DNA of 64,000 bases from a virus: positions 1-64,000 of the IMG/VR virus record IMGVR_UViG_3300036820_000009; one strand, given 5' to 3'. The position numbers and the translations under genes are program-made. Positions within the stretch are counted from its first letter, which is position 1. Each line of letters starts with the position of its first letter. Of this stretch, positions 4,020 to 23,610 are shown one piece after another. The notes beneath the pieces are model-generated. The model had not been told where the DNA came from, ran no database searches, and saw only the letters and a program-made list of their open reading frames with translations.

Positions 4020-4590
4020 TCACTTATCGTTCATCTGCCCATTATTTAAGCTTGCCTTGTTTTTTTCACATACCACCCCTTCCGTTTTCTATCACATCAT
4101 CTGTTGTATGTTACTGAGATACAATTGAATTCCTTTAGATCATTAATGAATTGTATCTAATATAGAAATCAATTTATATATAGGGAACAATAACTTACAA
4201 CATTGGAGTATATTACACCATAACAAACTCTCTATGGGGAGAGAGAGTGAAATACATATATAATCATGTAACATACAACCATATAGCACACGCCCTTACA
4301 CGTATGCGGGGGAACGTTTTTTGAATTTTTATTGACGTACAATTCCTCAATGATTTCAACTACATGAGCTGATTAATCACCAAGAGAACTCGTAGAAATT
4401 CTTAGGGAAGTCTTAGGGCTATCCTAATACTTCTTAGGGGGATAACTTTGCTCCCCGATGCCTGATTTTTCGAAACCGCCGTTTTGTAATGGTGTAAGTT
4501 ACCCCATCGGGATAAACTTGTGGCGGTAGGCAGGCACGCATTATACCGCGATCTTGACAAATCCCATAGGGGGGGGGGGGGGGGGGCTGA
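4020..4590. other. AT-rich non-coding island with TCTTAGGG repeats and G18 run (possible origin or packaging region)
   Basis: Sharp AT enrichment, no credible ORF; TCTTAGGG at 4400, 4411, 4432; G run 4569-4586. Confidence 0.45.
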
Positions 4591-7756: not shown

Positions 7757-8086
7757 ATGCCCACCTATGCCGTTCACGTCCGCCCGATTGTCCGCGTCCG
7801 GATCGAAGTCGAGGCAAAATCTCCCGAGGCCGCGCTGAAGCTTGCCGCCGATCGCGTCGCGGAATGGGCGCCGGTTTATTTCCGGGTCGGCGCGCCCATG
7901 CGCGGGCTGGCGGGCAGTACCGAAATGGAATTCGGCGACGATTTCGACAATGCCGGCGTCGATGAATTGGCGCCCGACCACCAACCCGGCGACCTCGATT
8001 ATCTGCGCTCCTGGCAGGAACGCGGCCGCACCACGGAAGGCCTGGAACTGGTCGAGGATTTAACCGAGGGAGCATGCGCGTCATGA
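7757..8086 (+). CDS. hypothetical protein
   Basis: GGAGGT RBS. Confidence 0.6.
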   Translation: MPTYAVHVRPIVRVRIEVEAKSPEAALKLAADRVAEWAPVYFRVGAPMRGLAGSTEMEFGDDFDNAGVDELAPDHQPGDLDYLRSWQERGRTTEGLELVEDLTEGACAS

Positions 8087-8361
8087 CCCATGCAATCCGC
8101 AAACGCATCGCCGGCGATTGGCTGGTGGACGGCTATATCGACAATCTCGGCCGCCAACGCTGCCTCGAACTCGTCATCGTCGGCACCAAGGCTTATGACG
8201 CCGACATGTACGATTTCGGGTTCCCGCTCGCGGAGTGCGAGCTGGTCGGGCACGCGCATGACGACACCATAACGGCTTGGGGCGCGAGCACCCGGTTTTC
8301 GCCCGACGAAGGGGAAATCGAGCGCGTCGCGCGGGAATGCTTTGGCTACGCATCCCTGTGA
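8074..8361 (+). CDS. hypothetical protein
   Basis: Coupled ORF, GGAG RBS. Confidence 0.55.
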   Translation: MRVMTHAIRKRIAGDWLVDGYIDNLGRQRCLELVIVGTKAYDADMYDFGFPLAECELVGHAHDDTITAWGASTRFSPDEGEIERVARECFGYASL

Positions 8362-8608: not shown

Positions 8609-8860
8609 ATGCCAGACGTTCGCACCAAACCATTATCGGCATCGCCGAGCGCTTATGAGTTGATGGCCCATGTTGAGGCTATCGCCAAGCTACGTGGCGT
8701 TAATGGTGAAATCGAGGTCACGACTTTCTGCGCCGGATTTCTGTCTGGAATGCTGGCGTCGGTTTTGCCGTTTCTCCCACCGGAGGTTGTCGATCAGCTA
8801 TTGGATCGCCGCCGATCGCGCATTCGGGCTGCACCAGGGAAGAAATGGCCGAGCACCTGA
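8609..8860 (+). CDS. hypothetical protein
   Basis: GAGG RBS, adjacent to upstream stop. Confidence 0.5.
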   Translation: MPDVRTKPLSASPSAYELMAHVEAIAKLRGVNGEIEVTTFCAGFLSGMLASVLPFLPPEVVDQLLDRRRSRIRAAPGKKWPST

Positions 8861-8935
8861 AGGCCGTGCCCGGCCGGCCCTCGGGCACAACCTATTTTCC
8901 GGTCGAATTATTTTAATCGCGCCGGTCGATTTTCA

Positions 8936-13989: not shown

Positions 13990-14868
13990 ATGAAATATGT
14001 GGTGGTGCTGGGAATCGACGGGCAGCTCGGTACCGCGTTAAAATATTACTGGCCGACCGACCTCATCTTAATCGGATACAATCGCCAACTTGATATCCGC
14101 ACTCCCGAAGCAATCATCAGGGCGCTGGCCGGAACGAAGCCTGACTTGGTGGTGAATTGCGCGGCCTATACCAATGTCGATTTGGCGGAAATCCATGTCG
14201 ACGAAGCCATGGGGGCGAACCATGTCGGCGCGCTCAATGTGGCGCGCGCCTGCGCGATGATGAATATTCCGTTGCTGCATCTCTCGACCGATTATGTTTT
14301 TTCCGGCGAACAGCAGCGACCCTATCGCGAAACCGATTCGACCGATCCGGTCAATATCTATGGCCGCTCCAAGCTGCACGGCGAGCGCGCGATCAGAACG
14401 GAGAAGCGCGGCGGTCATTTTATTTTGCGCGTCTCGTCGATCTATAGCCCGTGGGGCCGGAATTTCGTGAAAACCATGCTGGAGCTGGCCACGCGGCAAA
14501 CGGAAATCCGCATCGTCAACGATCAATACAGCGCGCCGACCGGCGCGCGCGCGATCGCGGAGGCAATCTTCACGCTGGCGCGCCGCGTGGCGGACCGAGG
14601 CACGAAATTCGGCACTTTCCATTTTTGCGGCGGCCGCGGCATGTCGTGGTTCGAATTTGCCCAATATATTTTCGATATCGCGGCCAGCTATGGGCACCGG
14701 CGCCCCACGCTGGTCGGCATCACCAGCGCCGAACGGAACAGCCCGGCGCGGCGGCCGCGCAATTCCTTGCTCAATTGCCTGCGCATCTATGAAACGCACC
14801 ACTTGATCTCGCCGCCGCTGGAAACCGAGCTGGAGCACTGTATTCGGCTGATTGGTCCGCCGACATGA
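13990..14868 (+). CDS. rmlD: dTDP-4-dehydrorhamnose reductase
   Basis: GIDGQLG, NCAAYTNVD, HLSTDYVFSG, YGRSKL.GE, NFVKTML, DQYSAPT. Confidence 0.93.
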   Translation: MKYVVVLGIDGQLGTALKYYWPTDLILIGYNRQLDIRTPEAIIRALAGTKPDLVVNCAAYTNVDLAEIHVDEAMGANHVGALNVARACAMMNIPLLHLSTDYVFSGEQQRPYRETDSTDPVNIYGRSKLHGERAIRTEKRGGHFILRVSSIYSPWGRNFVKTMLELATRQTEIRIVNDQYSAPTGARAIAEAIFTLARRVADRGTKFGTFHFCGGRGMSWFEFAQYIFDIAASYGHRRPTLVGITSAERNSPARRPRNSLLNCLRIYETHHLISPPLETELEHCIRLIGPPT

Positions 14869-15157: not shown

Positions 15158-15589
15158 ATGGCAACACCCTTCATCATCGGGCCCAACGAAAGAGCCGCAT
15201 TGGCCGACCTTCGCGACCGAGCCGCGATTCATCCCGTCGATATGCCGACGCTGATGAAGGCGATCAAAACGCCGGCCGGCAAGGCGGCGCACATGGCGCA
15301 GATGAACGAACAGACGGTCGAAATTCCGATTAATTTCCTGGTGACGTTCTCGATCGAAAACGGACATCCATCCGGCACCTGCCGGCACATGAGCATGTCG
15401 AGCGGCGCCATCGGCCGCGCGCCGACGCCGGGAGCGGCCTGGATGGTGGCGGAAGAACTAGGATTTATCGGCAGTCTCGATTATTGCCATGTCTATATCG
15501 AGGATTTGCAGCGCGGCGATGGCCGCCGGCACGCGATCAATATCGTGCAGCCGCTTTCCTTCAGCGTCGCCGCAGCACCCACTCAATAG
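15158..15589 (+). CDS. hypothetical protein
   Basis: GGAG RBS; VTFSIE..G.CRH.SMS motif. Confidence 0.6.
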   Translation: MATPFIIGPNERAALADLRDRAAIHPVDMPTLMKAIKTPAGKAAHMAQMNEQTVEIPINFLVTFSIENGHPSGTCRHMSMSSGAIGRAPTPGAAWMVAEELGFIGSLDYCHVYIEDLQRGDGRRHAINIVQPLSFSVAAAPTQ

Positions 15590-16136
15590 CGCATTCGGCC
15601 GGGCCCATCGTTTGATCGGTATGCAAATGCGGCTGATAGAATTCGCGCTGATATACCAGGCGCTCGGTGGAAGCTATCGACATCGCCCAATTCGCCATGG
15701 TGATCAAATTGATCGATACCGGCGACCAACTCTTCGCTTTATTCATCGTGAAGGTATGTTTGTGCTCGTTGCTGTAGATGCTCGGCCAATGGCCCTGTTC
15801 GTACATGTCTTCGTCGGGCACGGTGATGATCAGATAGCCGCCGGATCGTACCACGCGTATCCAATTGACCAGTGCCTCATAGGGTTGCTCCATATGTTCG
15901 AGGATGTGGCTGGCATGTAAAAACTCGAACGACTGATCAGGCACGCTCGATAGGGTTTGCGCATCGCCTTGCGCCTTGTCGAAATCCTCGATCGATTCGA
16001 TCAGGGGAAAAATTCCCTGATGTTGCCGCAAGCTGTCGCCGCCGGCGCCGACATCGATGCCCTTGCCGACGAAATAGCGCAGCGTGAACGCGGGATCGTA
16101 TATTCGGCGCTTGGCGGCTTTCGATTGTTCGTTCAT
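15561..16136 (-). CDS. class I SAM-dependent methyltransferase
   Basis: [29 protein letters not shown]. Confidence 0.85.
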
Positions 16137-16582
16137 GCCGGAGTTTCCTTGGGCCAGATGGTGGCGAACGTCGCGCCGGAAATCGGCGCCGCGATGGCGC
16201 TGAGGCGCCGCGGCACTTGGCTCCCCATGAACCGCGCGATGATATTGCCGGCGCGATCGTAGGCAGTCATGCTGCGATTGACGCGCTGGATCATGAAGGC
16301 GTCGTGCAGGCGGCTCAGCTCATCGCGGGCATGGAAGAAATAAAACGCATCGGTAATGCCGCGCGTCACGTTGCACAGATCGCAGGCCGCCACCAGATTT
16401 TCCCAATCGTCGCTGCCGCCCAGCGATTTGGGGATAACATGATCGATCGTCGCGCACAGCCGATCGCCGCGCATATCGATCATTTTGACGCCGCAATAGC
16501 AGCAGCGATGATTCTGCGCCTCGCTCAGCACCGCGCGCATTTGCGGCGCCGACAGAACTTGGCCACCGAAAAAATAACTCAT
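16133..16582 (-). CDS. HNH endonuclease
   Basis: [28 protein letters not shown]. Confidence 0.85.
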
Positions 16583-16604
16583 TTAAAATTTTATCAAATC
16601 GACG

Positions 16605-16633
16605 TTGACAAATCCACGACGAGTCCCGATGAT
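16605..16633 (+). promoter_or_regulatory. sigma70 promoter of the tRNA operon
   Basis: TTGACA-17-GATGAT preceded by an AT-rich UP-like tract. Confidence 0.6.
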
Positions 16634-16642
16634 CCGCGCGCC

Positions 16643-16777
16643 ATGTTATGTAGATATGATCATTCGCACCAATCACCGACCCGAGCGATAAGTTCGCAAG
16701 GGCGGCTACCCGCGTGCATGTCCATGTCGATCAATCCATGGGAAGCCACACAGGGGCAGGGGTCGAAGTCTATCTGA
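16643..16777 (+). CDS. putative attenuator leader peptide (44 aa)
   Basis: ATG 10 nt after the -10 box; 33 distinct codons; its 3' end overlaps the antiterminator arm. Confidence 0.65.
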   Translation: MLCRYDHSHQSPTRAISSQGRLPACMSMSINPWEATQGQGSKSI

Positions 16778-16799
16778 TCGACAGCGAGAGCGATCATAG

Positions 16800-16837
16800 A
16801 AAACCCCTCCCCGGCGAAAGCTAGCGAGGGGTTTTTT
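16800..16837 (+). terminator. intrinsic terminator of the attenuator
   Basis: AAAACCCCTC / GAGGGGTTTT stem, inner GAAA loop, T6 tract; left arm also complementary to 16753-16763. Confidence 0.8.
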
Positions 16838-16850
16838 GTTGGGTTCGATA

Positions 16851-16985
16851 TTGGTTTGTTGAGAGCGAAGGGGTTGGAAGTCACGAGCATGCGAGTCCCG
16901 ATTCGGACTCCCCTCGCCTACCAACGGTTCACCGCGCAAGCGGGCCATACCACCTGACAGCGGCGGGACTTGAAATGTCCTGCGG
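16851..16985 (+). ncRNA. unidentified structured RNA(s)
   Basis: Stems TTGGT/ACCAA, GCGAAGGGG/CCCCTCGC, GAGTCC/GGACTC, CCGC-GCAA-GCGG, GCGGGAC/GTCCTGC. Confidence 0.4.
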
Positions 16986-17030
16986 CCATGGAAAAGCACA
17001 GAGAAAATTATTTAATCGATTTCGATCAAT

Positions 17031-17107
17031 GGGCTCGTAGCTCAAATGGGAGAGCGCCTGTTTTGCACACAGGAGGCAGCGGGTTCGATACCTCGCCGGG
17101 TCCACCA
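17031..17107 (+). tRNA. tRNA-Ala(TGC)
   Basis: Cloverleaf, G3:U70, encoded CCA. Confidence 0.93.
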
Positions 17108-17143
17108 TTTTCATTATGATTCGGGGGCACGCACGGAACGAAT

Positions 17144-17218
17144 GCGGAAGTAGCTCAGGGGTAGAGCGTAACCTTGCCAAGGTTGAGGTCGCGGGTCCGA
17201 CTCCCGTCTTCCGCTCCA
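17144..17218 (+). tRNA. tRNA-Gly(GCC)
   Basis: Loop TTGCCAA, U73, CCA. Confidence 0.9.
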
Positions 17219-17222
17219 ATTC

Positions 17223-17297
17223 GGGCGCTTAGCACAATGGCAGTGCGAGCCGCTCATAACGGTTTGGTCGACGGTTCGATTCCGTCAGCGCCTACCA
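17223..17297 (+). tRNA. tRNA-Ile2/Met(CAT)
   Basis: Loop CTCATAA; acceptor stem resembles the lysidine-type Ile2 tRNA. Confidence 0.85.
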
Positions 17298-17310
17298 ATC
17301 GATCGATTAA

Positions 17311-17387
17311 TGCGGGATGGACTGGAGCGGCGCCAGCACGGTCTCATAAGCCGTCTCACGCGGGTTCAAATCCCGCTCCCGCAACCA
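17311..17387 (+). tRNA. tRNA-Met(CAT)
   Basis: Loop CTCATAA, U1:A72, CCA. Confidence 0.85.
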
Positions 17388-17420
17388 ATCCGGAGGTCCG
17401 TGGTTCGAATCCACGCCGTG

Positions 17421-17497
17421 TGCGGGGTGGAGCAGACCGGTAGCTCGCAAGGCCCATAACCTTGAGGTCGGGGGTTCAAATCCCTCCCCCGCTCCCA
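17421..17497 (+). tRNA. tRNA-fMet-like (CAT)
   Basis: 1:72 mismatch, initiator-like TGCGGGGTGGAGCAG 5' end, loop CCCATAA. Confidence 0.85.
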
Positions 17498-17501
17498 ATT
17501 T

Positions 17502-17578
17502 GCCCAAGTAGCCTACGCGGTTCACGGCGTTGGTCTGAAAAACCAAAGATGTTCGTTCGACTCGAACCTTGGGCACCA
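17502..17578 (+). tRNA. tRNA-Phe(GAA)
   Basis: Loop CTGAAAA, CCA. Confidence 0.88.
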
Positions 17579-17584
17579 GAATTC

Positions 17585-17658
17585 GCGGCATTGAGCGTAT
17601 TGGCGACGCTCCAGCCTTCCAAGCTGGCGAGCCGGTTCGATTCCGGTATGCCGCTCCA
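17585..17658 (+). tRNA. tRNA-Gly(TCC)
   Basis: Loop CTTCCAA, U73. Confidence 0.88.
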
Positions 17659-17673
17659 AATCACACCGGATTT

Positions 17674-17749
17674 TTCGGCGTAGCTCAGCAGGTAGAGCAC
17701 CTGACTGTTAATCAGGGTGTCGCAGGTTCGAGCCCTGCCGCCGGAGCCA
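17674..17749 (+). tRNA. tRNA-Asn(GTT)
   Basis: Loop CTGTTAA, U1:A72, G73. Confidence 0.93.
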
Positions 17750-17759
17750 ATTCCATTTT

Positions 17760-17833
17760 ACCGGGCTAGCACAGTGGAAGTGCCGCGGACTCCAAACCCG
17801 CTAACAGGGGTTCGATTCCTCTGCCCGGTGCCA
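17760..17833 (+). tRNA. tRNA-Trp(CCA)
   Basis: Loop CTCCAAA, G73. Confidence 0.9.
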
Positions 17834-17838
17834 GCTTC

Positions 17839-17911
17839 GCGCCGTAAGCCAAATGGAGAGGCATCGGTCTGCAAAACCGAATAACAGGTTCGATACCTGG
17901 ACGGTGCTCCA
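17839..17911 (+). tRNA. tRNA-Cys(GCA)
   Basis: Loop CTGCAAA, U73. Confidence 0.88.
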
Positions 17912-17919
17912 ATTACCGT

Positions 17920-17996
17920 GGCGATCGTGGCGAAGTGGCTAACGCGGCCGACTGTGAATCGGCTATTCGGGAGTTCGATCCTCTCCGATCGCCCCA
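17920..17996 (+). tRNA. tRNA-His(GTG)
   Basis: Loop CTGTGAA, encoded G-1 and C73. Confidence 0.92.
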
Positions 17997-17998
17997 AT

Positions 17999-18074
17999 GC
18001 CCGGCTAGCTCAGCGGTAGAGCAGCGCTTTTGTAAAGCGAAGGTCGCGGGTTCGATTCCTCGCGCTGGGCTCCA
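17999..18074 (+). tRNA. tRNA-Thr(TGT)
   Basis: Loop TTTGTAA. Confidence 0.9.
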
Positions 18075-18084
18075 ATTCGATCGA

Positions 18085-18159
18085 TGCGGCTTACCTCAAT
18101 GGTAGAGGAACCGGCTCTGACCCGGTCTATCGTGGGTTCGATTCCCCGAGCCGCTGCCA
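18085..18159 (+). tRNA. tRNA-Gln(CTG)
   Basis: Loop CTCTGAC, G73. Confidence 0.87.
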
Positions 18160-18166
18160 GTTTCAT

Positions 18167-18244
18167 AGCGGTGTAGCTCAGTCCGGAAGAGCAGCGCGTT
18201 TTGAGCGCGCGGGTCGCAGGTTCAAATCCGTGCCACCGCTGCCA
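18167..18244 (+). tRNA. tRNA-Gln(TTG)
   Basis: Loop TTTTGAG, G73. Confidence 0.85.
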
Positions 18245-18250
18245 ATTCAT

Positions 18251-18325
18251 CGCGCGTTCGACTTCAGGGAGGTCACCGGTCCCTCAAACCGGTCAGGCAG
18301 GGTTCGATTCCCGCACGCGCGGCCA
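18251..18325 (+). tRNA. tRNA-Glu(CTC)
   Basis: Loop CCCTCAA (C33). Confidence 0.85.
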
Positions 18326-18330
18326 ATTTA

Positions 18331-18415
18331 GCGGACATGGCGAAATCGGTAGACGCGATGGACTTAAAATCCGTTGTCGAAAGGCGTGGGAGTTCGATTC
18401 TCCCTGTCCGCACCA
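18331..18415 (+). tRNA. tRNA-Leu(TAA)
   Basis: Loop CTTAAAA, long variable arm. Confidence 0.93.
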
Positions 18416-18419
18416 AATT

Positions 18420-18504
18420 GCGTAGGTGGCGAAACTGGTAGACGCGCACGACTCAGAATCGTGTGGCTTCGGTCATGAGAGTTCGAATCTCTCCCTGCGC
18501 ACCA
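18420..18504 (+). tRNA. tRNA-Leu(CAG)
   Basis: Loop CTCAGAA, long variable arm. Confidence 0.93.
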
Positions 18505-18511
18505 AACCTTT

Positions 18512-18596
18512 GTCCGCGTGGCGAAACTGGTAGACGCACTGGCTTGAGAGGCCAGCGCCGCAAGGCATGGAAGTTCGAGTCTTCTCGCGGACACCA
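18512..18596 (+). tRNA. tRNA-Leu(GAG)
   Basis: Loop TTGAGAG, long variable arm. Confidence 0.93.
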
Positions 18597-18603
18597 ACCT
18601 CTT

Positions 18604-18695
18604 GGGCGGTTGGCAGAGTGGTCGATTGCACCGCGTTGGAAACGCGGCATGCCCGTTCAAGGGTATCGCTCGTTCAAATCGAGCACCGCCCGCCA
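18604..18695 (+). tRNA. tRNA-Ser(GGA)
   Basis: Loop TTGGAAA, long variable arm, G73. Confidence 0.92.
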
Positions 18696-18714
18696 TTTAT
18701 GATATTATTCGAGG

Positions 18715-19245
18715 ATGACGAGCGGGCGAAGAGAGATTCGTCGCTTCATGGGGCAATTGTTTGCCGCGGCGATCTATTACGACGGCATCGGCGAATCGAA
18801 CCGCGCCGAGGATTGCCGCCAGCATGCGCGCACGGTGCTGATCAAATCGTCGGAATATCGCACGCCATGGGGCAGCATGACGCGCGCGGAGCTGCGCACG
18901 CTGCTGTCCGAAGAACAAAATCATCATTGCTGCTACTGCGGTTGCGAAATGACCGAGCCGCCGACCGATACCAGCTTGTCGCGACCGACCGATATCTCGA
19001 TCGAGCACATCATTCCGATATCGCATCAAGGTCCGCACGATTGGGAAAACACGGCCGCCTGTTGCTTCGCCTGCAATAATTCGCGGCCGTCAAATGTGCC
19101 GGCGCTGATCTATTGGGAATACCGATTGGAGATCCAGCGCGTGCGCCGCAAGCGCCGGCTGCGCGCGTCGCGCGCCAAGTATTACGAGCGGCCACGGCCG
19201 CCGCGCGCGACGATCGAGCTCGCCGGCATGCAGTTTCAGTTGTGA
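18715..19245 (+). CDS. HNH endonuclease inside the tRNA array
   Basis: QNHHCCYC..SIEHIIP..WENTAACCFACN. Confidence 0.85.
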   Translation: MTSGRREIRRFMGQLFAAAIYYDGIGESNRAEDCRQHARTVLIKSSEYRTPWGSMTRAELRTLLSEEQNHHCCYCGCEMTEPPTDTSLSRPTDISIEHIIPISHQGPHDWENTAACCFACNNSRPSNVPALIYWEYRLEIQRVRRKRRLRASRAKYYERPRPPRATIELAGMQFQL

Positions 19246-19333
19246 GGATGGGTGGCAGAGTGGACGATTGCGCCGGCCCCGAAAACCGGAGTGCTTCGCG
19301 GCACCGTGGGTTCAAATCCCACCCCATCCGCCA
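19246..19333 (+). tRNA. tRNA-Ser(CGA)
   Basis: Loop CCCGAAA (C33), long variable arm; starts right after the HNH stop. Confidence 0.9.
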
Positions 19334-19337
19334 AATT

Positions 19338-19426
19338 GGGTGCGTGGCAGAGCGGCTTATCGCAGCGGTCCTGAAAACCGCCGTGCCCCAAGGGCATCGG
19401 GAGTTCGAATCTCCCCGCACCCGCCA
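19338..19426 (+). tRNA. tRNA-Ser(TGA)
   Basis: Loop CCTGAAA (C33), long variable arm. Confidence 0.92.
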
Positions 19427-19440
19427 ATTCGAAGAGATAG

Positions 19441-19541
19441 TCAGGCCGGAGATACCGGGCCTGGCGAGGGACAGGAAGGCGGCGACCGGCCGCGCTCTCC
19501 AAAGGCAAATCCGAGAGCCTTCCTGTCCCGGCGCTTTTTTT
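19441..19541 (+). ncRNA. unidentified structured RNA or terminator-like element
   Basis: 13-bp perfect stem 19468-19480 / 19517-19529, upstream hairpin, T7 tract. Confidence 0.45.
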
Positions 19542-19633
19542 GGTGCCGTGGCAGAGTGGTCGATCGCGGTGGTTTGCTAAACCATTGATCGGCGAAATCC
19601 GATCCGGAGGTTCGAATCCTCCCGGCACCGCCA
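19542..19633 (+). tRNA. tRNA-Ser(GCT)
   Basis: Loop TTGCTAA, long variable arm. Confidence 0.92.
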
Positions 19634-19634
19634 A

Positions 19635-19663
19635 TTTGTACATGTTTGTACATGTTTGTACAT
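19635..19663 (+). repeat. tandem TTTGTACATG x3
   Basis: 10-bp unit containing the TGTACA palindrome. Confidence 0.9.
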
Positions 19664-19676
19664 TGAGGGACTTTCC

Positions 19677-19751
19677 GCCCGGTTGGCGCAGTGGTAGCGC
19701 AGCGCCTTGGTAAGGCACAGGTCATCGGTCCGATTCCGATACCGGGCTCCA
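19677..19751 (+). tRNA. tRNA-Thr(GGT)
   Basis: Loop TTGGTAA. Confidence 0.88.
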
Positions 19752-19758
19752 TATTTTT

Positions 19759-19842
19759 GCATCCGTGGGTGAGCGGCAAAACCGGCAGACTGTAAATCTG
19801 TTGCCTATGGCTACGAAGGTTCGAGTCCTTCCGGATGCACCA
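19759..19842 (+). tRNA. tRNA-Tyr(GTA)
   Basis: Loop CTGTAAA, variable arm. Confidence 0.92.
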
Positions 19843-19880
19843 CTCCGCACCATCATGCACGATGACGCATCATCATCCGT

Positions 19881-19955
19881 GTGCTCGTAGCTCAATGGCA
19901 GAGCAATCGCTCGATAAGCGATCGACGTAAGGTTCGATTCCTTCCGGGCATACCA
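19881..19955 (+). tRNA. tRNA-Ile(GAT)
   Basis: Loop TCGATAA (C33). Confidence 0.88.
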
Positions 19956-19962
19956 ATGATGC

Positions 19963-20040
19963 GCGCGCGTAGCTCAGCCAGGCCAGAGCCGCCGGCCCTT
20001 AACCGGTAGGTCGGGGGTTCGAATCCCTCCGCGCGCACCA
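19963..20040 (+). tRNA. tRNA-Lys(CTT)
   Basis: Loop CCCTTAA (C33). Confidence 0.9.
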
Positions 20041-20050
20041 ATTTGTGTTT

Positions 20051-20124
20051 GCTCCCATCTGTCAGCGGTAGGCAACCGGCTTGTCACGCCGGCAACAGCG
20101 GTTCGATTCCGCTTGGGAGCGCCA
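20051..20124 (+). tRNA. tRNA-Asp(GTC)
   Basis: Loop TTGTCAC, G73. Confidence 0.87.
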
Positions 20125-20201
20125 CGGGGTGTAGCTCAGTCTGGCAGAGCGCCTGCTTTGGGAGCAGGATGCCGGGGGTTCAAATCCTCTCGCCCCGACC
20201 A
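20125..20201 (+). tRNA. tRNA-Pro(TGG)
   Basis: C1:G72, loop TTTGGGA. Confidence 0.93.
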
Positions 20202-20204
20202 ATT

Positions 20205-20280
20205 GCCCGCGCAGCACGATCGGACGTGCATCCGAATCCTAGTCGGAAGGCTGCCAGTTCGAGCCTGGCCGTGGGCGCCA
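20205..20280 (+). tRNA. tRNA-Arg(CCT)
   Basis: Loop ATCCTAG (unusual A32). Confidence 0.83.
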
Positions 20281-20310
20281 TATTTTCCGGAATATATGCC
20301 ACAATTTTCC

Positions 20311-20460
20311 GGCATTAGGTAGCAAGCCTAGCGGCGTCTTGCCACGAAAAAGCCGGGGTTCGTGGCCCCGGCCTTTGTGGTAACCCGCAATGCTTGAACC
20401 ACCCTGCGGAGACTCAACGTACGCCTCAAAATAGTGATTATGGGGAAGAGGGTCAAGGCG
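20311..20460 (+). ncRNA. unidentified structured RNA
   Basis: Nested stems GCATT/AATGC, TAGGT/GCCTA, GCGG/CCGC, TTGCCACGAA/TTTGTGGTAA, GCCGGGG/CCCCGGC. Confidence 0.45.
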
Positions 20461-20468
20461 GCAATTTT

Positions 20469-20546
20469 CGGGGTATAGCTCAGCCTGGCAAGAGTGTTCG
20501 CTTCGGAAGCGAGAGATCGCTGGTTCAAATCCAGCTACCCCGACCA
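20469..20546 (+). tRNA. tRNA-Pro(CGG)
   Basis: C1:G72, loop TTCGGAA. Confidence 0.92.
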
Positions 20547-20585
20547 CTATCGCAATTTTGTTATATGATTTGCGTTATATGATTT

Positions 20586-20660
20586 GCTCCGTTAGCTCAG
20601 CGGCAGAGCGCCTGGCCTACACCCAGGATGTCGGCGGTTCAATTCCGTCACGGAGTACCA
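20586..20660 (+). tRNA. tRNA-Val(TAC)
   Basis: Loop CCTACAC (C33). Confidence 0.9.
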
Positions 20661-20662
20661 GC

Positions 20663-21196
20663 ATGTTGCCATCGATCGTGCCGCTCGCGTGTCTCGATGC
20701 CATGAGCGAGCTGGCGGCCGCGGCGCCGGCGGGCTGCTTTGTCGAGATCGGCGTTTACAAAGGCGGCTCGGCGCTGCGGCTCTACGAGATCGCGCTGCGC
20801 CAGGATCGCACGCTGCATCTCTTCGATACGTTCGCCGGCATGCCGATCGCAACATCGGCCGACCGCCATCAAATCGGCGATTTCGGCGACGTCGACCTGG
20901 ACACGATTCGCGCGGCGCTGCCAGCGGCGATTTTTCATGTCGGCGTCTATCCCGCCACGCATCCGCCCGACCTGCGCGATGTCGCGTTCATTCATTGCGA
21001 CTGCGATCAGTATGACAGCTATCAGGCGGTGATCCGCACGATGTACCCGCTGCTGGTGCCGCATGGCGTGCTGCTATTCGATGATTATTTCGATCTGCCG
21101 GGCGCGCGCCGCGCGATCGAGGAACATTTTCCGGCCAGCCGATTGATACCGACCGCCGGCGGCCGCTGCTACGTCAAAATGCCACGTTCTTACTAG
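20663..21196 (+). CDS. TylF/MycF-family sugar O-methyltransferase
   Basis: VEIGVYKGGS, LFDTFAGMP, FIHCDCDQY, LLFDDY. Confidence 0.85.
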   Translation: MLPSIVPLACLDAMSELAAAAPAGCFVEIGVYKGGSALRLYEIALRQDRTLHLFDTFAGMPIATSADRHQIGDFGDVDLDTIRAALPAAIFHVGVYPATHPPDLRDVAFIHCDCDQYDSYQAVIRTMYPLLVPHGVLLFDDYFDLPGARRAIEEHFPASRLIPTAGGRCYVKMPRSY

Positions 21197-21256
21197 CGGC
21201 CAGGTGGCTGGACCTTCACTCCAGAGACAGGGGTTCGAGTCCCCTACGTGGCACCA
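21181..21256 (+). tRNA. tRNA-Glu(TTC)
   Basis: GCCACGT/ACGTGGC acceptor, loop CCTTCAC; overlaps the TylF stop. Confidence 0.82.
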
Positions 21257-21265
21257 GTTTTCCCT

Positions 21266-21342
21266 GCGCCCTTAGCTCAACTGGATAGAGCGCCTGACTA
21301 CGGATCAGGAGGTTAGGGATTCGAGTTCTCTAGGGCGCGCCA
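21266..21342 (+). tRNA. tRNA-Arg(ACG)
   Basis: Loop CTACGGA. Confidence 0.92.
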
Positions 21343-21346
21343 ATTC

Positions 21347-21424
21347 GCTTCCGTAGCTCAGTCGGATTAGAGCAGCGGCCTTCTAAGCCGCGGGTCGCCG
21401 GTTCGATTCCGGCCGGGAGCACCA
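21347..21424 (+). tRNA. tRNA-Arg(TCT)
   Basis: Loop CTTCTAA. Confidence 0.93.
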
Positions 21425-21425
21425 T

Positions 21426-21502
21426 GCATCCGCAGCTCGACTGGACCGAGCGTCCGCCTCCGAAGCGGAAGATTGCGAGTTCGACTCTCGCCGGGTGCGC
21501 CA
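21426..21502 (+). tRNA. tRNA-Arg(CCG)
   Basis: Loop CTCCGAA. Confidence 0.9.
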
Positions 21503-21509
21503 ATTCGTT

Positions 21510-21594
21510 GCGCGGCTGGCGAAACTGGTAGACGCGCCGGTCTCAAAAACCGGTACCGAAAGGCATGCGGGTTCGATTCCCGCGCTGCGCACCA
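21510..21594 (+). tRNA. tRNA-Leu(CAA)
   Basis: Loop CTCAAAA, long variable arm. Confidence 0.93.
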
Positions 21595-21595
21595 A

Positions 21596-21671
21596 GGGTC
21601 CGTAACTCAGTCGGTAGAGTTCCCGGCTTTTAACCGGGATGTCGCGGGTTCGATCCCCGCCGGGCCTACCA
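21596..21671 (+). tRNA. tRNA-Lys(TTT)
   Basis: Loop CTTTTAA. Confidence 0.92.
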
Positions 21672-21675
21672 AATC

Positions 21676-21749
21676 GCCCTTGTAGCTCAGTGGCAGAGCA
21701 GCGTCCTCGTAAGGCGCCGATTTCGGTTCGATTCCGTGCAAGGGCTCCA
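21676..21749 (+). tRNA. tRNA-Thr(CGT)
   Basis: Loop CTCGTAA. Confidence 0.88.
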
Positions 21750-21797
21750 CTTGACTTCGATCGCCGGCTCGCGCATATAGCTCGCCAACAAGCATTT

Positions 21798-21872
21798 GCG
21801 TTGGTAGCTCAGCGGCAGAGCGGTCCACTCTAAAGGGACTGGTCGCAGGTTCGATCCCTGCCCGACGCGCCA
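21798..21872 (+). tRNA. amber suppressor tRNA (CTA)
   Basis: Canonical cloverleaf, stem GTCCA/GGGAC, loop CTCTAAA, short variable loop, G73, CCA. Confidence 0.88.
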
Positions 21873-21887
21873 AATTGAAGGTTCGAC

Positions 21888-22262
21888 ATGCTGTAGATTG
21901 ATTCGACCCTCCGTCTTTACGCTATTCTGCGCGGCGATCTCGACATGCCCGCAGGCAAGGCGGCCAGCCAGGCTGGCCACGCCTTCCTTGGATCCTTCCT
22001 CTCAGCTCCCACCGACGTTTCGCACCGCTATCAGGCCGATGGCGTGGGCACCAAGATCGTGCTCATGGCGCCCGGCGAGCCCGATTTGCGCGCCGCCTAT
22101 GACCAGGCGCGCGAAAGGGGCCTGCCGTGCGTTCTGGTGGCCGACAAAGGGCATGTCATGCCACCGGCGTTCACGGGTGCCCCGATCGTGACGGCCCTCG
22201 GAATCGGGCCCGCGCTGCGGCGCCAGGTGCGCGATATCACCGCGAGGTTTCCCTTGATGTAA
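21888..22262 (+). CDS. pth2: peptidyl-tRNA hydrolase Pth2-like, with in-frame TAG at codon 3
   Basis: RLYAILRGDLDMPAGKAASQAGHA..KIVL..VADKG..TALGIGP; GAAGG-6nt-ATG CTG TAG in frame. Confidence 0.8.
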
Positions 22263-22267
22263 TTCAA

Positions 22268-22348
22268 TCCGGGGTAGCTCAGCGGTCAGAGCGGCTGGCT
22301 TCGCAAGAGGCCGGCAGATCGGAAGTTCGAATCTTCCCCCCGGAGCCA
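22268..22348 (+). ncRNA. tRNA-like RNA without an anticodon loop
   Basis: Normal acceptor (TCCGGGG/CCCCGGA-GCCA), D and T arms; anticodon arm is a 9-bp stem with a GCAA tetraloop. Confidence 0.8.
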
Positions 22349-22369
22349 TCGAATGCAGAGGAAGGATCC

Positions 22370-22975
22370 ATGTCCAGCGTGCTCACCAAGGAACGAAGGC
22401 CGACGCGGACCCTCGTACTCAATGCCGACTACCTGCCGCTCTCGACCTGGCCGCCCTCGCTGATTTCCTGCGAGAACGCGGTGCATGCGCTGTACCGCGA
22501 CCGCGTCACGGTGGTCGATACCTGGCCGGGCTACTTCATGCGGTCGCCCTCGGTATCGATCCCGGTGCCGCGGATCGTGGCGCTGCGCCATTACGCGCCG
22601 GTCGCCGGCGAACCGAAATTCTGCCGGCGATCGGTCTATCTGCGCGATCGCTACCGCTGTCAGTATTGCGGCGCGCCATTCCCGACCGAAGAGCTGACGC
22701 TCGATCATGTGATCCCGCGCGCCAATGGCGGCAAAACGGTGTGGGAGAACATCCTGGCGTGCTGCGTCGGCTGCAATTCCAAGAAGGGCCACAAGCCGGC
22801 TAATTTCAGCGGCCGGCGCGGCGTGGTCGGCGCCGATGGCAGCATGCGGCCGCTGAAACAGCCACGACGGCCGACGCGCGCCGAGCTGCTGCGCGCGGGA
22901 CTTGAATTATTGCCCGCTGACATCAAGAATGATTTTGGCGATTGGCTCTATTGGGACGCTGAATTGCAGCCTTGA
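22370..22975 (+). CDS. HNH endonuclease (McrA-like, LVLNAxY type)
   Basis: TLVLNADYLPL..RDRYRCQYCG..LTLDHVIPRANGG..WENILACCVGCNSKKG. Confidence 0.9.
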   Translation: MSSVLTKERRPTRTLVLNADYLPLSTWPPSLISCENAVHALYRDRVTVVDTWPGYFMRSPSVSIPVPRIVALRHYAPVAGEPKFCRRSVYLRDRYRCQYCGAPFPTEELTLDHVIPRANGGKTVWENILACCVGCNSKKGHKPANFSGRRGVVGADGSMRPLKQPRRPTRAELLRAGLELLPADIKNDFGDWLYWDAELQP

Positions 22976-23610
22976 TGTCGATTCGCGAGCATTTCACCCT
23001 CAGCGGCGCCGCGATCGCCGCGGCGCTGCTCGACGAAGAGCTGGAAGCGGCCGCCGCGCATGCCGCCGACACGATGGCGCAATGCCTGATCGCCGACGGC
23101 AAGATCCTGCTCGCGGGCAATGGCGGCAGCGCCGCCGGCGCGCAGCACATCGCCGGCGAGCTCATGGGCAATCTCAATTTTCCGCGGCCGGCGCTGCCGG
23201 CGATCGCGCTGACGGCCGACAGCGCGGTGCTGACCGCGCTGGCCAATGATTTCGGCTACGATTGGGCGATCGCGCGGCAGATCGAGGCACTCGGCATGAT
23301 CGGCGACATTTTCATCGGGCTATCGACATCGGGCAATTCGTCCAACATCATCCAGGGGCTCAAGCGCGCGCGGCAGCTTGGCTTGACCACCATCGGCATG
23401 ACCGGCCGCAGCGGCGGCGCGATGCTGCCTCTCTGCGATATCTGCCTGCGCGTGCCATCGCACCGCACTTCGCTGATCCAGGAAGTTCATCTTGTCGTCG
23501 CGCATGCCATCTGCGCGCAGGTCGAGGCCGCGCTTTTTAGCCCGGTCGAGAATATAGCCAGCCCTCCGCATGGTGCGGATCCGGCTCGCGGGTCCAGCCC
23601 AGCCGCGTAA
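22972..23610 (+). CDS. gmhA: phosphoheptose isomerase (SIS domain)
   Basis: GNGGSAA.AQHIA.EL, LTALANDFGY, STSGNSSN, IQEVH. Confidence 0.92.
   Translation: MMSIREHFTLSGAAIAAALLDEELEAAAAHAADTMAQCLIADGKILLAGNGGSAAGAQHIAGELMGNLNFPRPALPAIALTADSAVLTALANDFGYDWAIARQIEALGMIGDIFIGLSTSGNSSNIIQGLKRARQLGLTTIGMTGRSGGAMLPLCDICLRVPSHRTSLIQEVHLVVAHAICAQVEAALFSPVENIASPPHGADPARGSSPAA

What the first reader, a model, noticed from the sequence alone, without database searches (positions are those of the whole stretch)
16605..16837. Pan-codon attenuator: a leader peptide that may switch on the tRNA array when translation stalls
Seen: a TTGACA-17-GATGAT promoter, then an ATG 10 nt later with no SD (near-leaderless) opening a 44-codon ORF, MLCRYDHSHQSPTRAISSQGRLPACMSMSINPWEATQGQGSKSI. 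It uses 33 different codons and 18 amino acids, including TTA, TGT, AGA, TCA, CGA, ATA, AGT, CTA, ACA and CCA, which look uncommon in this GC-rich genome. An intrinsic terminator follows (AAAACCCCTC 16800-16809 / GAGGGGTTTT 16826-16835 plus T tract), upstream of all tRNAs. The terminator's left arm can instead pair with the 3' end of the leader: GGGG 16753-56 with CCCC 16809-12, AGGGGT 16758-63 with ACCCCT 16803-08, TCTA with TAGA, and TGATCG 16775-80 with CGATCA 16791-96. Established: trp/his-type attenuation has this geometry but uses runs of one codon type. Inference: a ribosome reaching the stop masks the antiterminator arm and transcription terminates. Stalling at almost any codon (tRNA cleavage by host defence nucleases, starvation) frees the antiterminator and transcribes the replacement tRNA set, making this a general tRNA-depletion sensor.
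Basis: partly seen in the sequence, partly recalled or inferred. Interest (0 to 1): 0.92.

Follow-up and report, generated by a model that had tools for sequence, protein, structure and literature searches.

The report
Switchable terminator before phage tRNA array
A strong promoter, a folded leader of about 200 bases and a transcription stop signal with a competing hairpin sit in front of this uncultured phage's 40 tRNA genes, but the "all-codon test peptide" proposed to control them looks statistically like ordinary non-coding sequence.

Summary
Three exceed chance:
- The promoter (TTGACA-17-GATGAT) is one of only five sites in the 93.7-kb genome that match 10 of 12 consensus positions. Four of those five are intergenic.
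- The intrinsic terminator at 16796-16841 is strong (-23.7 kcal/mol, U6 tail).
- A competing hairpin at 16753-16812 (-27.1 kcal/mol) gives z -2.9 to -4.9 against shuffles. Nine control hairpins gave z -1.6 to +0.8.

The translated, "pan-codon" part does not exceed chance:
- 33 distinct codons: random sequence of this composition gives 31.4 +/- 2.2.
- 9 rare codons: random gives 8.9, real genes 2.0.
- 27 of 44 codons matching the phage anticodons: random gives 27.1.
- The coding score is below that of every called gene.
- There is no Shine-Dalgarno sequence, and the AUG is paired in a 100-nt 5' hairpin.

The phage is a singleton, so no covariation test was possible, and no expression data could be obtained.

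Best reading: an attenuator-like, conditionally read-through terminator in an untranslated leader of the tRNA operon, with the input unknown. Ribosome-mediated control remains possible at about 0.17.

This scan has noted similar "leader ORF + terminator before phage tRNA array" cases on other DNA. I did not verify those notes.

The parts
16133..16582 (-). Divergent neighbour: HNH endonuclease gene, whose start faces the leader region
   Evidence: Pfam HNH E 1.5e-11; PHROGs HNH families; coding score +79.5
16583..16604 (.). AT-rich patch (21% GC). It looks like an UP element for the + strand promoter and holds a weak - strand promoter candidate (TGGATT-17-TAAAAT, 16616 to 16588) for the HNH gene
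   Evidence: function inferred
16605..16633 (+). Sigma-70-type promoter TTGACA-17-GATGAT (10 of 12). The start is probably G16640 (inferred)
   Evidence: Best site in 15500-23500; one of 5 sites at >=10/12 in the genome, 4 of them intergenic
16641..16741 (+). Long imperfect 5' hairpin of the leader RNA. Its base pairs CCAUG (16641-45, including the AUG) with CAUGG (16737-41)
   Evidence: MFE -35.3 kcal/mol, z -2.17, 5 of 200 shuffles as good, MFE frequency 0.15
16643..16777 (+). 44-codon ORF (the proposed leader peptide), statistically indistinguishable from a chance ORF
   Evidence: no family or homologue
16753..16812 (+). Hairpin A (candidate antiterminator). Its 3' arm overlaps the 5' arm of the terminator, and the ORF's TGA lies in its 5' arm
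   Evidence: -27.1 kcal/mol; it is the MFE of nascent transcripts ending at 16812-16830; stronger than shuffles
16796..16841 (+). Intrinsic terminator T: a 14-bp outer stem with a small inner GAAA-capped stem, then UUUUUUGUUG. It also reads as hairpin + UUUUCUAU on the - strand (bidirectional form)
   Evidence: -23.7 kcal/mol
16989..17016 (+). Weak candidate second promoter TGGAAA-16-TTTAAT in an AT-rich patch (25% GC), 14 nt before tRNA-Ala
   Evidence: 9 of 12; AT-rich patches are enriched in intergenic DNA; not verified
17031..22348 (+). Array of 40 tRNA or tRNA-like genes, all on the + strand, interrupted by HNH and methyltransferase genes
   Evidence: ARAGORN; Rfam tRNA hits; Pfam

Best explanation
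P16605 is a host-type (sigma-70) promoter that fires rightwards into an untranslated, highly folded leader RNA of about 200 nt.

The leader ends in a strong intrinsic terminator (T, 16796-16841). The 5' arm of T is also the 3' arm of an equally strong upstream hairpin (A, 16753-16812).

A is completed before the 3' arm of T is made. Each polymerase therefore faces a kinetic choice:
- If A persists, transcription runs on into the tRNA genes.
- If T displaces A, a short leader RNA of about 195 nt is released.

The element is thus an attenuator-type gate, or a deliberately leaky terminator, on transcription entering the tRNA array.

Nothing in the sequence identifies what tips the balance. It could be polymerase speed or NTP level, a phage or host RNA-binding factor, or Rho loading on the C-rich stretch near 16660-16700. 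I consider translation of the 44-codon ORF the less likely input.

Shown: the promoter match, the two hairpins, their overlap and its statistical excess, and the order in which they form.

Inferred: the transcription start, actual termination and read-through, and any regulation.
For: - Promoter: best site in 8 kb. The genome has only 5 sites at >=10/12, and 4 of them are intergenic, so such sites are probably used.
- Terminator T: -23.7 kcal/mol with a U6 tail.
- Hairpin A: -27.1 kcal/mol, overlapping T at 16796-16812.
- Pairing of the T 5' arm with upstream sequence exceeds shuffles: 0 of 300 with the post-hoc arm, and 2 of 100 with a uniform 10-nt arm. It is the most extreme of 10 hairpins tested. 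The same hairpin read on the - strand shows no such partner.
- The two states are near-isoenergetic: -71.7 kcal/mol (T) against -72.1 (A). MFE and centroid disagree.
- A is the MFE for nascent RNA ending at 16812-16830, and T only from 16835 onwards.
- The 5' two-thirds of the leader form one well-defined hairpin, z -2.2.
- No + strand promoter of >=9/12 with A2/T6 lies between 16633 and 23323.
- ORF statistics match non-coding sequence.
Against: - There are no relatives, so there is no covariation and no conservation evidence for either hairpin.
- No ligand- or protein-binding motif was recognised, and Rfam gives nothing significant.
- At equilibrium T wins with P about 0.99, so read-through rests on unverified kinetics.
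- A weak promoter-like site downstream (16989-17016) could make the array independent of this gate.
- The ORF's stop codon does sit where a terminating ribosome would unzip A. That fits the rival.
Confidence: 0.42

Rival explanations
1. The 44-codon ORF is translated from a near-leaderless AUG. A ribosome reaching the TGA (16775-77) masks the 5' arm of A, so T forms. A ribosome stalled anywhere upstream leaves A intact, and the tRNA array is transcribed. This would be a general decoding or tRNA-depletion sensor.
For: - The geometry is right. The stop codon lies inside the 5' arm of A, so a footprint of about 16760-16790 would remove most of A.
- An ATG within 15 nt of the -10 whose ORF ends in that window occurs in only 5% of shuffles.
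- Many genes of this phage also lack a clear Shine-Dalgarno sequence; only 13-31 of 79 have one. The divergent HNH gene may itself be leaderless.
- Codons 2-4 (TTA, TGT, AGA) are the three rarest in the ORF, and the array supplies matching tRNAs.
- Other notes of this scan report similar leader ORFs before phage tRNA arrays (unverified, not independent).
Against: - Nothing marks the ORF as selected. It has 33 distinct codons against a random 31.4 +/- 2.2 (30% of random sequences reach 33). It has 9 rare codons against 8.9, and 27 of 44 Watson-Crick anticodon matches against 27.1.
- The coding score is -0.31 bits per codon, below every called gene.
- There is no Shine-Dalgarno sequence.
- The preferred start G16640 would give a 3-nt leader, which is poor for leaderless initiation (established knowledge from E. 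coli and mycobacteria; inference here).
- The AUG is paired in a stable hairpin.
- The region 1:2 pairing is weaker than in shuffles, z +0.96, so no pause or synchronising hairpin is evident.
- Any ATG ORF of at least 15 codons ending in the window arises in 34% of shuffles.
- With 44 codons and weak initiation, the ribosome would rarely reach the stop before T is transcribed. The switch would sit ON and sense little (inference).
- The peptide has no homologues.
Confidence: 0.17
2. P16605 to T is a self-contained gene for a phage small RNA of about 195-200 nt. The tRNA array would be transcribed from its own promoter(s), for example 16989-17016 or AT-rich sites inside the array. The A/T overlap would be incidental, or would serve sRNA folding.
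For: - Promoter, about 200 nt, then terminator is the standard sRNA gene layout.
- The 5' hairpin is well defined.
- An A-rich stretch precedes the terminator and a U6 tail follows it.
- There are 195 nt between T and the first tRNA, ending in an AT-rich patch with a 9-of-12 promoter-like site 14 nt before tRNA-Ala.
- Further AT-rich, repeat-bearing patches inside the array could be internal promoters.
- At equilibrium T dominates.
Against: - The alternative pairing is stronger than chance and is absent at the control hairpins. A plain sRNA does not need it.
- The second promoter is weak, lacks the A at -10 position 2, and failed the tool's criteria.
- There is no Rfam match, no relative and no target prediction.
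Confidence: 0.22
3. The hairpin is mainly a bidirectional insulator. It would stop antisense transcripts coming out of the tRNA region before they reach the HNH and methyltransferase genes, and stop stray rightward transcription. The upstream complementarity and the ORF would be coincidences.
For: - An A-tract upstream and a T-tract downstream give terminator form on both strands: -16.7 to -21.1 kcal/mol, then TTTTCTAT on the - strand.
- It lies between divergent units.
- The shuffle result with a uniform arm is only 2 of 100, and the feature was picked out by eye from a 64-kb window.
Against: - No - strand gene or promoter is evident in the array that would need stopping.
- The strongest promoter in the region points straight at the hairpin from 165 nt away.
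- The alternative pairing is specific to the + strand.
Confidence: 0.12
4. The ORF is an ordinary small protein gene (44 aa) with its own promoter and terminator.
For: It has an ATG start and an open frame, and it is flanked by a promoter and a terminator.
Against: - The coding score is below all called genes. GC3 is 0.59 against 0.71. It has 9 rare codons against the 2 expected for a gene.
- It has no Shine-Dalgarno sequence.
- It has no Pfam, PHROG or sequence homologue.
Confidence: 0.03

Closest known systems
Leader-peptide transcription attenuators of amino-acid operons (trpL, hisL, leuL, thrL, ilv leaders; Rfam His_leader RF00514)
   Same: - A promoter-proximal intrinsic terminator whose 5' arm is shared with an upstream antiterminator hairpin.
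- A short ORF whose stop codon lies in the 5' arm of the antiterminator.
- The best, but non-significant, Rfam alignment of 16728-16839 is to His_leader.
   Different: - There is no run or enrichment of any regulatory codon.
- There is no Shine-Dalgarno sequence.
- There is no significant 1:2 pause hairpin.
- The ORF is long (44 codons) and composed like non-coding sequence.
- tRNA genes, not biosynthetic enzymes, lie downstream.
- The Rfam score is 16.6 bits against a gathering threshold of 49, E = 2.7.
Ribosome-stalling attenuators that answer to general translation inhibition (for example the macrolide-inducible mef/mel leader, PMC4335068; others from my own knowledge: ermK, vmlR, bmrCD)
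   Different: Those leaders have recognisable ribosome-binding sites and conserved arrest peptides, and they control resistance genes. Here translation is unsupported and the target is a tRNA array.
Sinorhizobium meliloti trpL attenuator and its released sRNA rnTrpL (PMC6614838, PMC7968998)
   Same: It is an alphaproteobacterial precedent for a terminated attenuator RNA that is itself a stable, functional small RNA. The likely host here is alphaproteobacterial, judged only from the primase relatives.
   Different: trpL is a 14-codon ORF with consecutive Trp codons and is conserved. Nothing comparable can be shown here.
T-box riboswitches (tRNA-sensing antiterminator/terminator leaders)
   Same: The conceptual fit is the same: a leader RNA that chooses between antiterminator and terminator according to tRNA status.
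   Different: - There is no Rfam T-box hit even at E <= 10.
- There is no UGGN bulge in hairpin A, no specifier loop and no Stem I features.
- T-boxes are mainly found in Gram-positive bacteria.

Membership tests
Leader-peptide (ribosome-mediated) transcription attenuator | Intrinsic terminator between the promoter and the regulated genes | tested here: met
   T at 16796-16841, -23.7 kcal/mol, U6 tail. It lies 165 nt after the -10 and 190 nt before the first tRNA.
Leader-peptide (ribosome-mediated) transcription attenuator | Antiterminator hairpin mutually exclusive with the terminator | tested here: met
   A at 16753-16812, -27.1 kcal/mol, shares 16796-16812 with T. z -2.9 to -4.9 against shuffles; controls z -1.6 to +0.8.
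Leader-peptide (ribosome-mediated) transcription attenuator | Short ORF with credible translation start signals | tested here: inconclusive
   There is no Shine-Dalgarno sequence. The ATG lies 10 nt after the -10, giving a probable 3-nt leader. The AUG is paired in the 5' hairpin. However, Shine-Dalgarno use in this phage is low, at 13-31 of 79 genes.
Leader-peptide (ribosome-mediated) transcription attenuator | Enrichment of the codons whose decoding is sensed | tested here: not met
   Distinct codons, rare codons and anticodon-matched codons all equal the random expectation.
Leader-peptide (ribosome-mediated) transcription attenuator | Stop codon placed so that a terminating ribosome masks the antiterminator 5' arm | tested here: met
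   TGA at 16775-77 lies inside the 5' arm of A. The chance rate is 5-34%, depending on the definition.
Leader-peptide (ribosome-mediated) transcription attenuator | Region 1:2 (pause or anti-antiterminator) hairpin inside the ORF | tested here: not met
   The predicted pairing of 16651-16670 with 16761-16776 gives ddG -10.9. This is weaker than the shuffle mean of -13.7 (z +0.96).
Leader-peptide (ribosome-mediated) transcription attenuator | ORF and hairpins conserved or covarying in relatives | not testable with these tools
   No relative closer than 49% protein identity was found, and no DNA homologue of the leader.
Rfam His_leader (RF00514) and other curated leaders or riboswitches | Score at or above the family gathering threshold | tested here: not met
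   Best hits are His_leader at 16.6 bits (threshold 49, E 2.7) and the rnk leader at 15.3 bits (threshold 55). No riboswitch or T-box hit appears at E <= 10.
Terminator-bearing bacterial or phage small RNA gene | Own promoter, discrete 50-300 nt transcript, intrinsic terminator | tested here: inconclusive
   The promoter and terminator are present at the right spacing.

The most novel reading that the evidence does not exclude
The 44-codon ORF really is translated, and the A/T switch couples read-through into a complete 40-gene tRNA set to the speed of decoding. This would be the limiting 'all-codon' member of an unpublished class of ribosome-mediated attenuators in front of phage tRNA arrays. 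The phage would then replenish tRNAs when host defence nucleases or starvation slow translation.
Probability: 0.15. Interest if true: 0.85.

Novelty: new variant of a known kind. Interest (0 to 1): 0.4.

Why it matters
How phages time and dose the expression of large tRNA arrays is essentially unknown. Meanwhile phage tRNAs are now known to counter tRNA-cleaving defences (for example PARIS, PMC11464382).

A conditional terminator at the head of a complete tRNA set would be a concrete control point that can be tested with simple transcription assays.

This locus also carries a caution for the whole class of "codon-matched leader" claims. When the array is complete, the "pan-codon" signature is mathematically the same as non-coding sequence, so it cannot count as evidence. 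Only start-codon and recoding experiments, or covariation in relatives, can decide.

Tried and rejected
Searches for relatives or homologues that found nothing useful:
- blastn (distant mode) of 16500-17110 against 50,697 phage records matched only tRNA-Ala. Megablast of 12 kb matched only single tRNAs.
- The primase gave no IMG/VR relative as a single protein. Its best protein relatives are <=49% identical.
- 80 loci found with a primase profile carry no tRNA arrays, so they are unrelated phages.
- A structure-anchored DNA pattern in IMG/VR gave one hit (L002). It has no tRNAs and no further similarity, so I treat it as chance.
- A 22-mer from the terminator found nothing in the metagenome contigs.
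- The scan index holds no look-alike stretch.
- The peptide has no homologue and no PHROG family. The same holds for the three other small ORFs across the region.

Other attempts:
- Rfam at E <= 1 and E <= 10 gave nothing significant.
At equilibrium T wins with every mask and with none.

Readings considered and rejected:
- A degenerate tRNA or tRNA-like minihelix at about 16865-16922 that ends in ACCA. ARAGORN and the Rfam tRNA model find nothing there, and the fold is no better than shuffles, z -0.49.
- A boxA or nut-type antitermination site. I saw no convincing motif by eye.
- T-box. See the membership test.

Analogy survey, too small and heterogeneous to use as evidence:
- Rhizobium phage RHph_Y65 and Roseobacter phage DSS3P8 have tRNAs interspersed with co-directional ORFs and no discrete head.
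- Stenotrophomonas phage Moby has a promoter without a terminator before its first tRNA. It also has a depositor-annotated terminator 5 nt before an internal Trp-Cys pair.

Full report
**Setting**

The window is the first 64 kb of a 93,725-bp IMG/VR virus record with direct terminal repeats, rated 100% complete. GC content is about 60%.

ARAGORN finds 40 tRNA or tRNA-like genes, all on the + strand, between 17031 and 22348. Rfam confirms them. The array is interrupted by HNH endonuclease and methyltransferase genes.

Immediately left of the finding lies an HNH endonuclease gene on the - strand (16133-16582). It follows a methyltransferase gene (15561-16136, - strand). The interval 16583-17030 is therefore a 448-nt divergent intergenic region at the head of the tRNA array.

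Yes, base for base.
- TTGACA lies at 16605-10, then a 17-nt spacer, then GATGAT at 16628-33.
- The ATG is at 16643. The 44-codon ORF ends at TGA 16775-77 and uses 33 distinct codons and 18 amino acids.
- The terminator arms are 16800-09 and 16826-35, followed by TTTTTTGTTG.

**Which parts exceed chance**

*Promoter.* It is the best sigma-70-type match in 15500-23500. Genome-wide, on both strands, only five sites reach 10 of 12. Four of the five lie in the 16% of the genome that is intergenic. Such sites are therefore probably functional in this phage. An AT-rich patch (21% GC) sits just upstream.

*Terminator.* Its energy is -23.7 kcal/mol with a U6 tail. It is one of the few clean hairpin-plus-T-run elements in the genome. 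It also has terminator form on the - strand.

*Competing hairpin A (16753-16812, -27.1 kcal/mol).* I measured how much the nascent RNA gains by pairing the terminator's 5' arm with upstream sequence.
- With the post-hoc 17-nt arm the real value is -15.1 kcal/mol, against -3.1 +/- 2.5 in 300 dinucleotide shuffles. None reached it.
- With a uniform, blind definition (10-nt arm) the result is z -2.9 (2 of 100).
- Nine other hairpins in the genome gave z from -1.6 to +0.8. One of these was the same hairpin read on the - strand.

The full-length states are near-isoenergetic: -71.7 kcal/mol with T and -72.1 with A. For the 89-nt switch region the MFE shows T and the centroid shows A. Growing-chain folds have A as the MFE from 16812 to 16830, and T only once 16835 is made. 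This is the anatomy of an attenuator expression platform.

**Which parts do not exceed chance**

Everything specific to the "pan-codon leader peptide" is at chance level.

| Property | ORF | Random codons, local composition | Real genes (44-codon windows) |
|---|---|---|---|
| Distinct codons | 33 | 31.4 +/- 2.2 (30% reach 33) | 25.7 +/- 3.0 |
| Rare codons | 9 | 8.9 | 2.0 |
| Watson-Crick match to the 36 phage anticodons | 27 of 44 | 27.1 +/- 3.2 | not computed per window (63% of gene codons match) |

- With a refined gene model the ORF scores -13.4 bits (-0.31 per codon). The lowest called gene scores +0.07 per codon and the mean is +0.40.
- The window holds 149 ATG ORFs of 35-60 codons.
- An ATG ORF of at least 15 codons that stops in 16745-16790 appears in 34% of shuffled leaders. 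If the ATG must lie within 15 nt of the -10, it appears in 5%.

High codon diversity and rare codons are therefore the signature of untranslated sequence. Because the array is nearly complete, "matches the array" has no discriminating power here.

**Translation signals**

- There is no Shine-Dalgarno motif before 16643.
- This is weak evidence. Only 13 of 79 crude gene calls have a core Shine-Dalgarno sequence at their longest start. That rises to 31 of 79 if any early start is allowed, against a 5.5% background.
- The HNH gene may itself be leaderless.
- The usual start position, 7 nt after the -10, is G16640. That would give a 5'-GCC-AUG leader. From established work on leaderless initiation, extra 5' nucleotides strongly reduce it. 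That step is my inference.
- The AUG is paired (CCAUG with CAUGG) at the base of a 100-nt hairpin that occupies codons 1-33. This hairpin has MFE -35.3 kcal/mol, z -2.17 and MFE frequency 0.15.
- The region 1:2 pairing expected in a classical four-region attenuator is predicted (16651-70 with 16761-76), but it is weaker than in shuffles, z +0.96.
- Masking a ribosome footprint at every position does not change the equilibrium outcome. T wins in every case.

**Relatives**

None are usable.
- DNA searches against phage records hit only individual tRNAs.
- The primase has no relative above 49% identity among 5.8 billion proteins.
- Profile-recruited IMG/VR loci lack tRNA arrays.
- Pattern scans of IMG/VR and of the metagenomes gave one chance hit and nothing, respectively.
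- The peptide has no homologue or family.
- Rfam gives no significant hit. The best alignments of 16728-16845 are to His_leader (16.6 bits against a threshold of 49, E 2.7) and the rnk leader. They reflect the generic antiterminator/terminator topology only.

**Is there a promoter downstream of the terminator?**

Possibly. The last 40 nt before tRNA-Ala are AT-rich (25% GC). They contain TGGAAA-16-TTTAAT (9 of 12), which would start transcription about 7 nt before the tRNA.

AT-rich patches are rare (40 in the genome), and about half of them lie in intergenic DNA, which is only 16% of the genome. Several lie inside the array and carry short tandem repeats.

**Weighing the explanations**

I consider it likely (about 0.6) that the A/T overlap is functional. 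In that case the element gates, or bleeds, transcription from P16605 into the array and releases a leader RNA of about 195 nt.

What sets the balance is not visible. The only candidate input one can point to is the ORF, whose stop is well placed. Every independent test of translation or codon design is neutral or negative, and the kinetics look unfavourable (44 codons, weak initiation, no pause hairpin).

My estimates are:

| Explanation | Probability |
|---|---|
| Ribosome-independent gate | 0.42 |
| Separate sRNA gene, with the tRNAs transcribed from their own promoter | 0.22 |
| Ribosome-mediated model | 0.17 |
| Insulator plus coincidence | 0.12 |
| Small protein gene | 0.03 |

**Relation to other notes of this scan**

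A word search shows that other first readers and follow-up agents reported [quoted passage not shown] in at least eight other genomes. Two of these were "pan-amino-acid" cases. These are unverified AI notes and not independent evidence. They raised my prior for the ribosome model slightly.

In my own small look at cultured phages:
- Stenotrophomonas phage Moby has a depositor-annotated terminator 5 nt before an internal tRNA-Trp/tRNA-Cys pair. A 27-codon ORF containing Cys-Lys-Trp precedes it.
- Its hairpins barely overlap, and its first tRNA has a promoter but no terminator.
- RHph_Y65 and DSS3P8 show no discrete array head.

The class needs a blind survey with a composition-matched null before any member is believed on codon content.

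**Literature**

Full-text searches found no account of attenuation controlling phage tRNA genes. They did find the classical and antibiotic-responsive attenuators and the Sinorhizobium rnTrpL case, which serve as the closest known systems.

**Verdict**

This is a real and moderately unusual RNA architecture: a promoter, a folded leader and a bistable terminator at the head of a complete phage tRNA set. It is worth a simple transcription assay. The headline claim of a pan-codon leader-peptide sensor is not supported by anything beyond stop-codon placement.

Noticed in passing
16620-16630 and 16892-16902: The 11-nt string CGAGTCCCGAT occurs twice within 270 nt. One copy lies in the spacer/-10 of P16605. 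The other lies in a hairpin (GAGTCC...GGACTC) between the terminator and the first tRNA. Both are preceded by CACGA. This may be a shared protein-binding site.
   Followed up: partly
19633-19657, 20546-20586, 18695-18718: AT-rich patches inside the tRNA array carry short tandem repeats (TTTGTACATG x2; GTTATATGATTTG x2) or a TATGAT -10-like hexamer just before the internal HNH ORF. They are candidate internal promoters or operators.
   Followed up: no
20352-20372: A 9-bp GC hairpin in a tRNA-free gap of the array reads as a terminator on both strands. On the - strand it is followed by TTTTTCGTGG. Three - strand promoter-like sites lie at 20428-20491.
   Followed up: no
4041-4347: An unusually AT-rich region of about 300 bp with no called gene, in a 60% GC genome. 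It holds several patches at <=25% GC. It could be an origin or a regulatory hub.
   Followed up: no
16133-16582 (-), 18715-19245 (+), 22127-22975 (+), 20558-21196 (+): Three HNH endonuclease genes flank or interrupt the tRNA array, and a TylF-like methyltransferase gene lies inside it.
   Followed up: partly
21798-21872 and 22268-22348: A tRNA with a CUA (amber-reading) anticodon, called tRNA-Pyl by ARAGORN, and a final 81-nt tRNA-like gene called Cys(gca) lie at the end of the array. Other notes of this scan discuss them.
   Followed up: no
13990-14868 (+), 22972-23610 (+): Sugar-nucleotide enzymes lie next to the array: an RmlD-like reductase (E 1e-83) and an SIS-domain isomerase-like protein.
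   Followed up: no
L085 (Stenotrophomonas phage Moby MN095772.1) 8755-8896; also 8063-8091: A depositor-annotated intrinsic terminator lies 5 nt before tRNA-Trp/tRNA-Cys inside the array. A 27-codon ORF containing Cys-Lys-Trp and a long hairpin precede it. The first tRNA of the array has a TTGACA-17-TAACAT promoter and no terminator. Because this phage is cultured, it is a more tractable place to test the 'leader before tRNAs' idea.
   Followed up: partly
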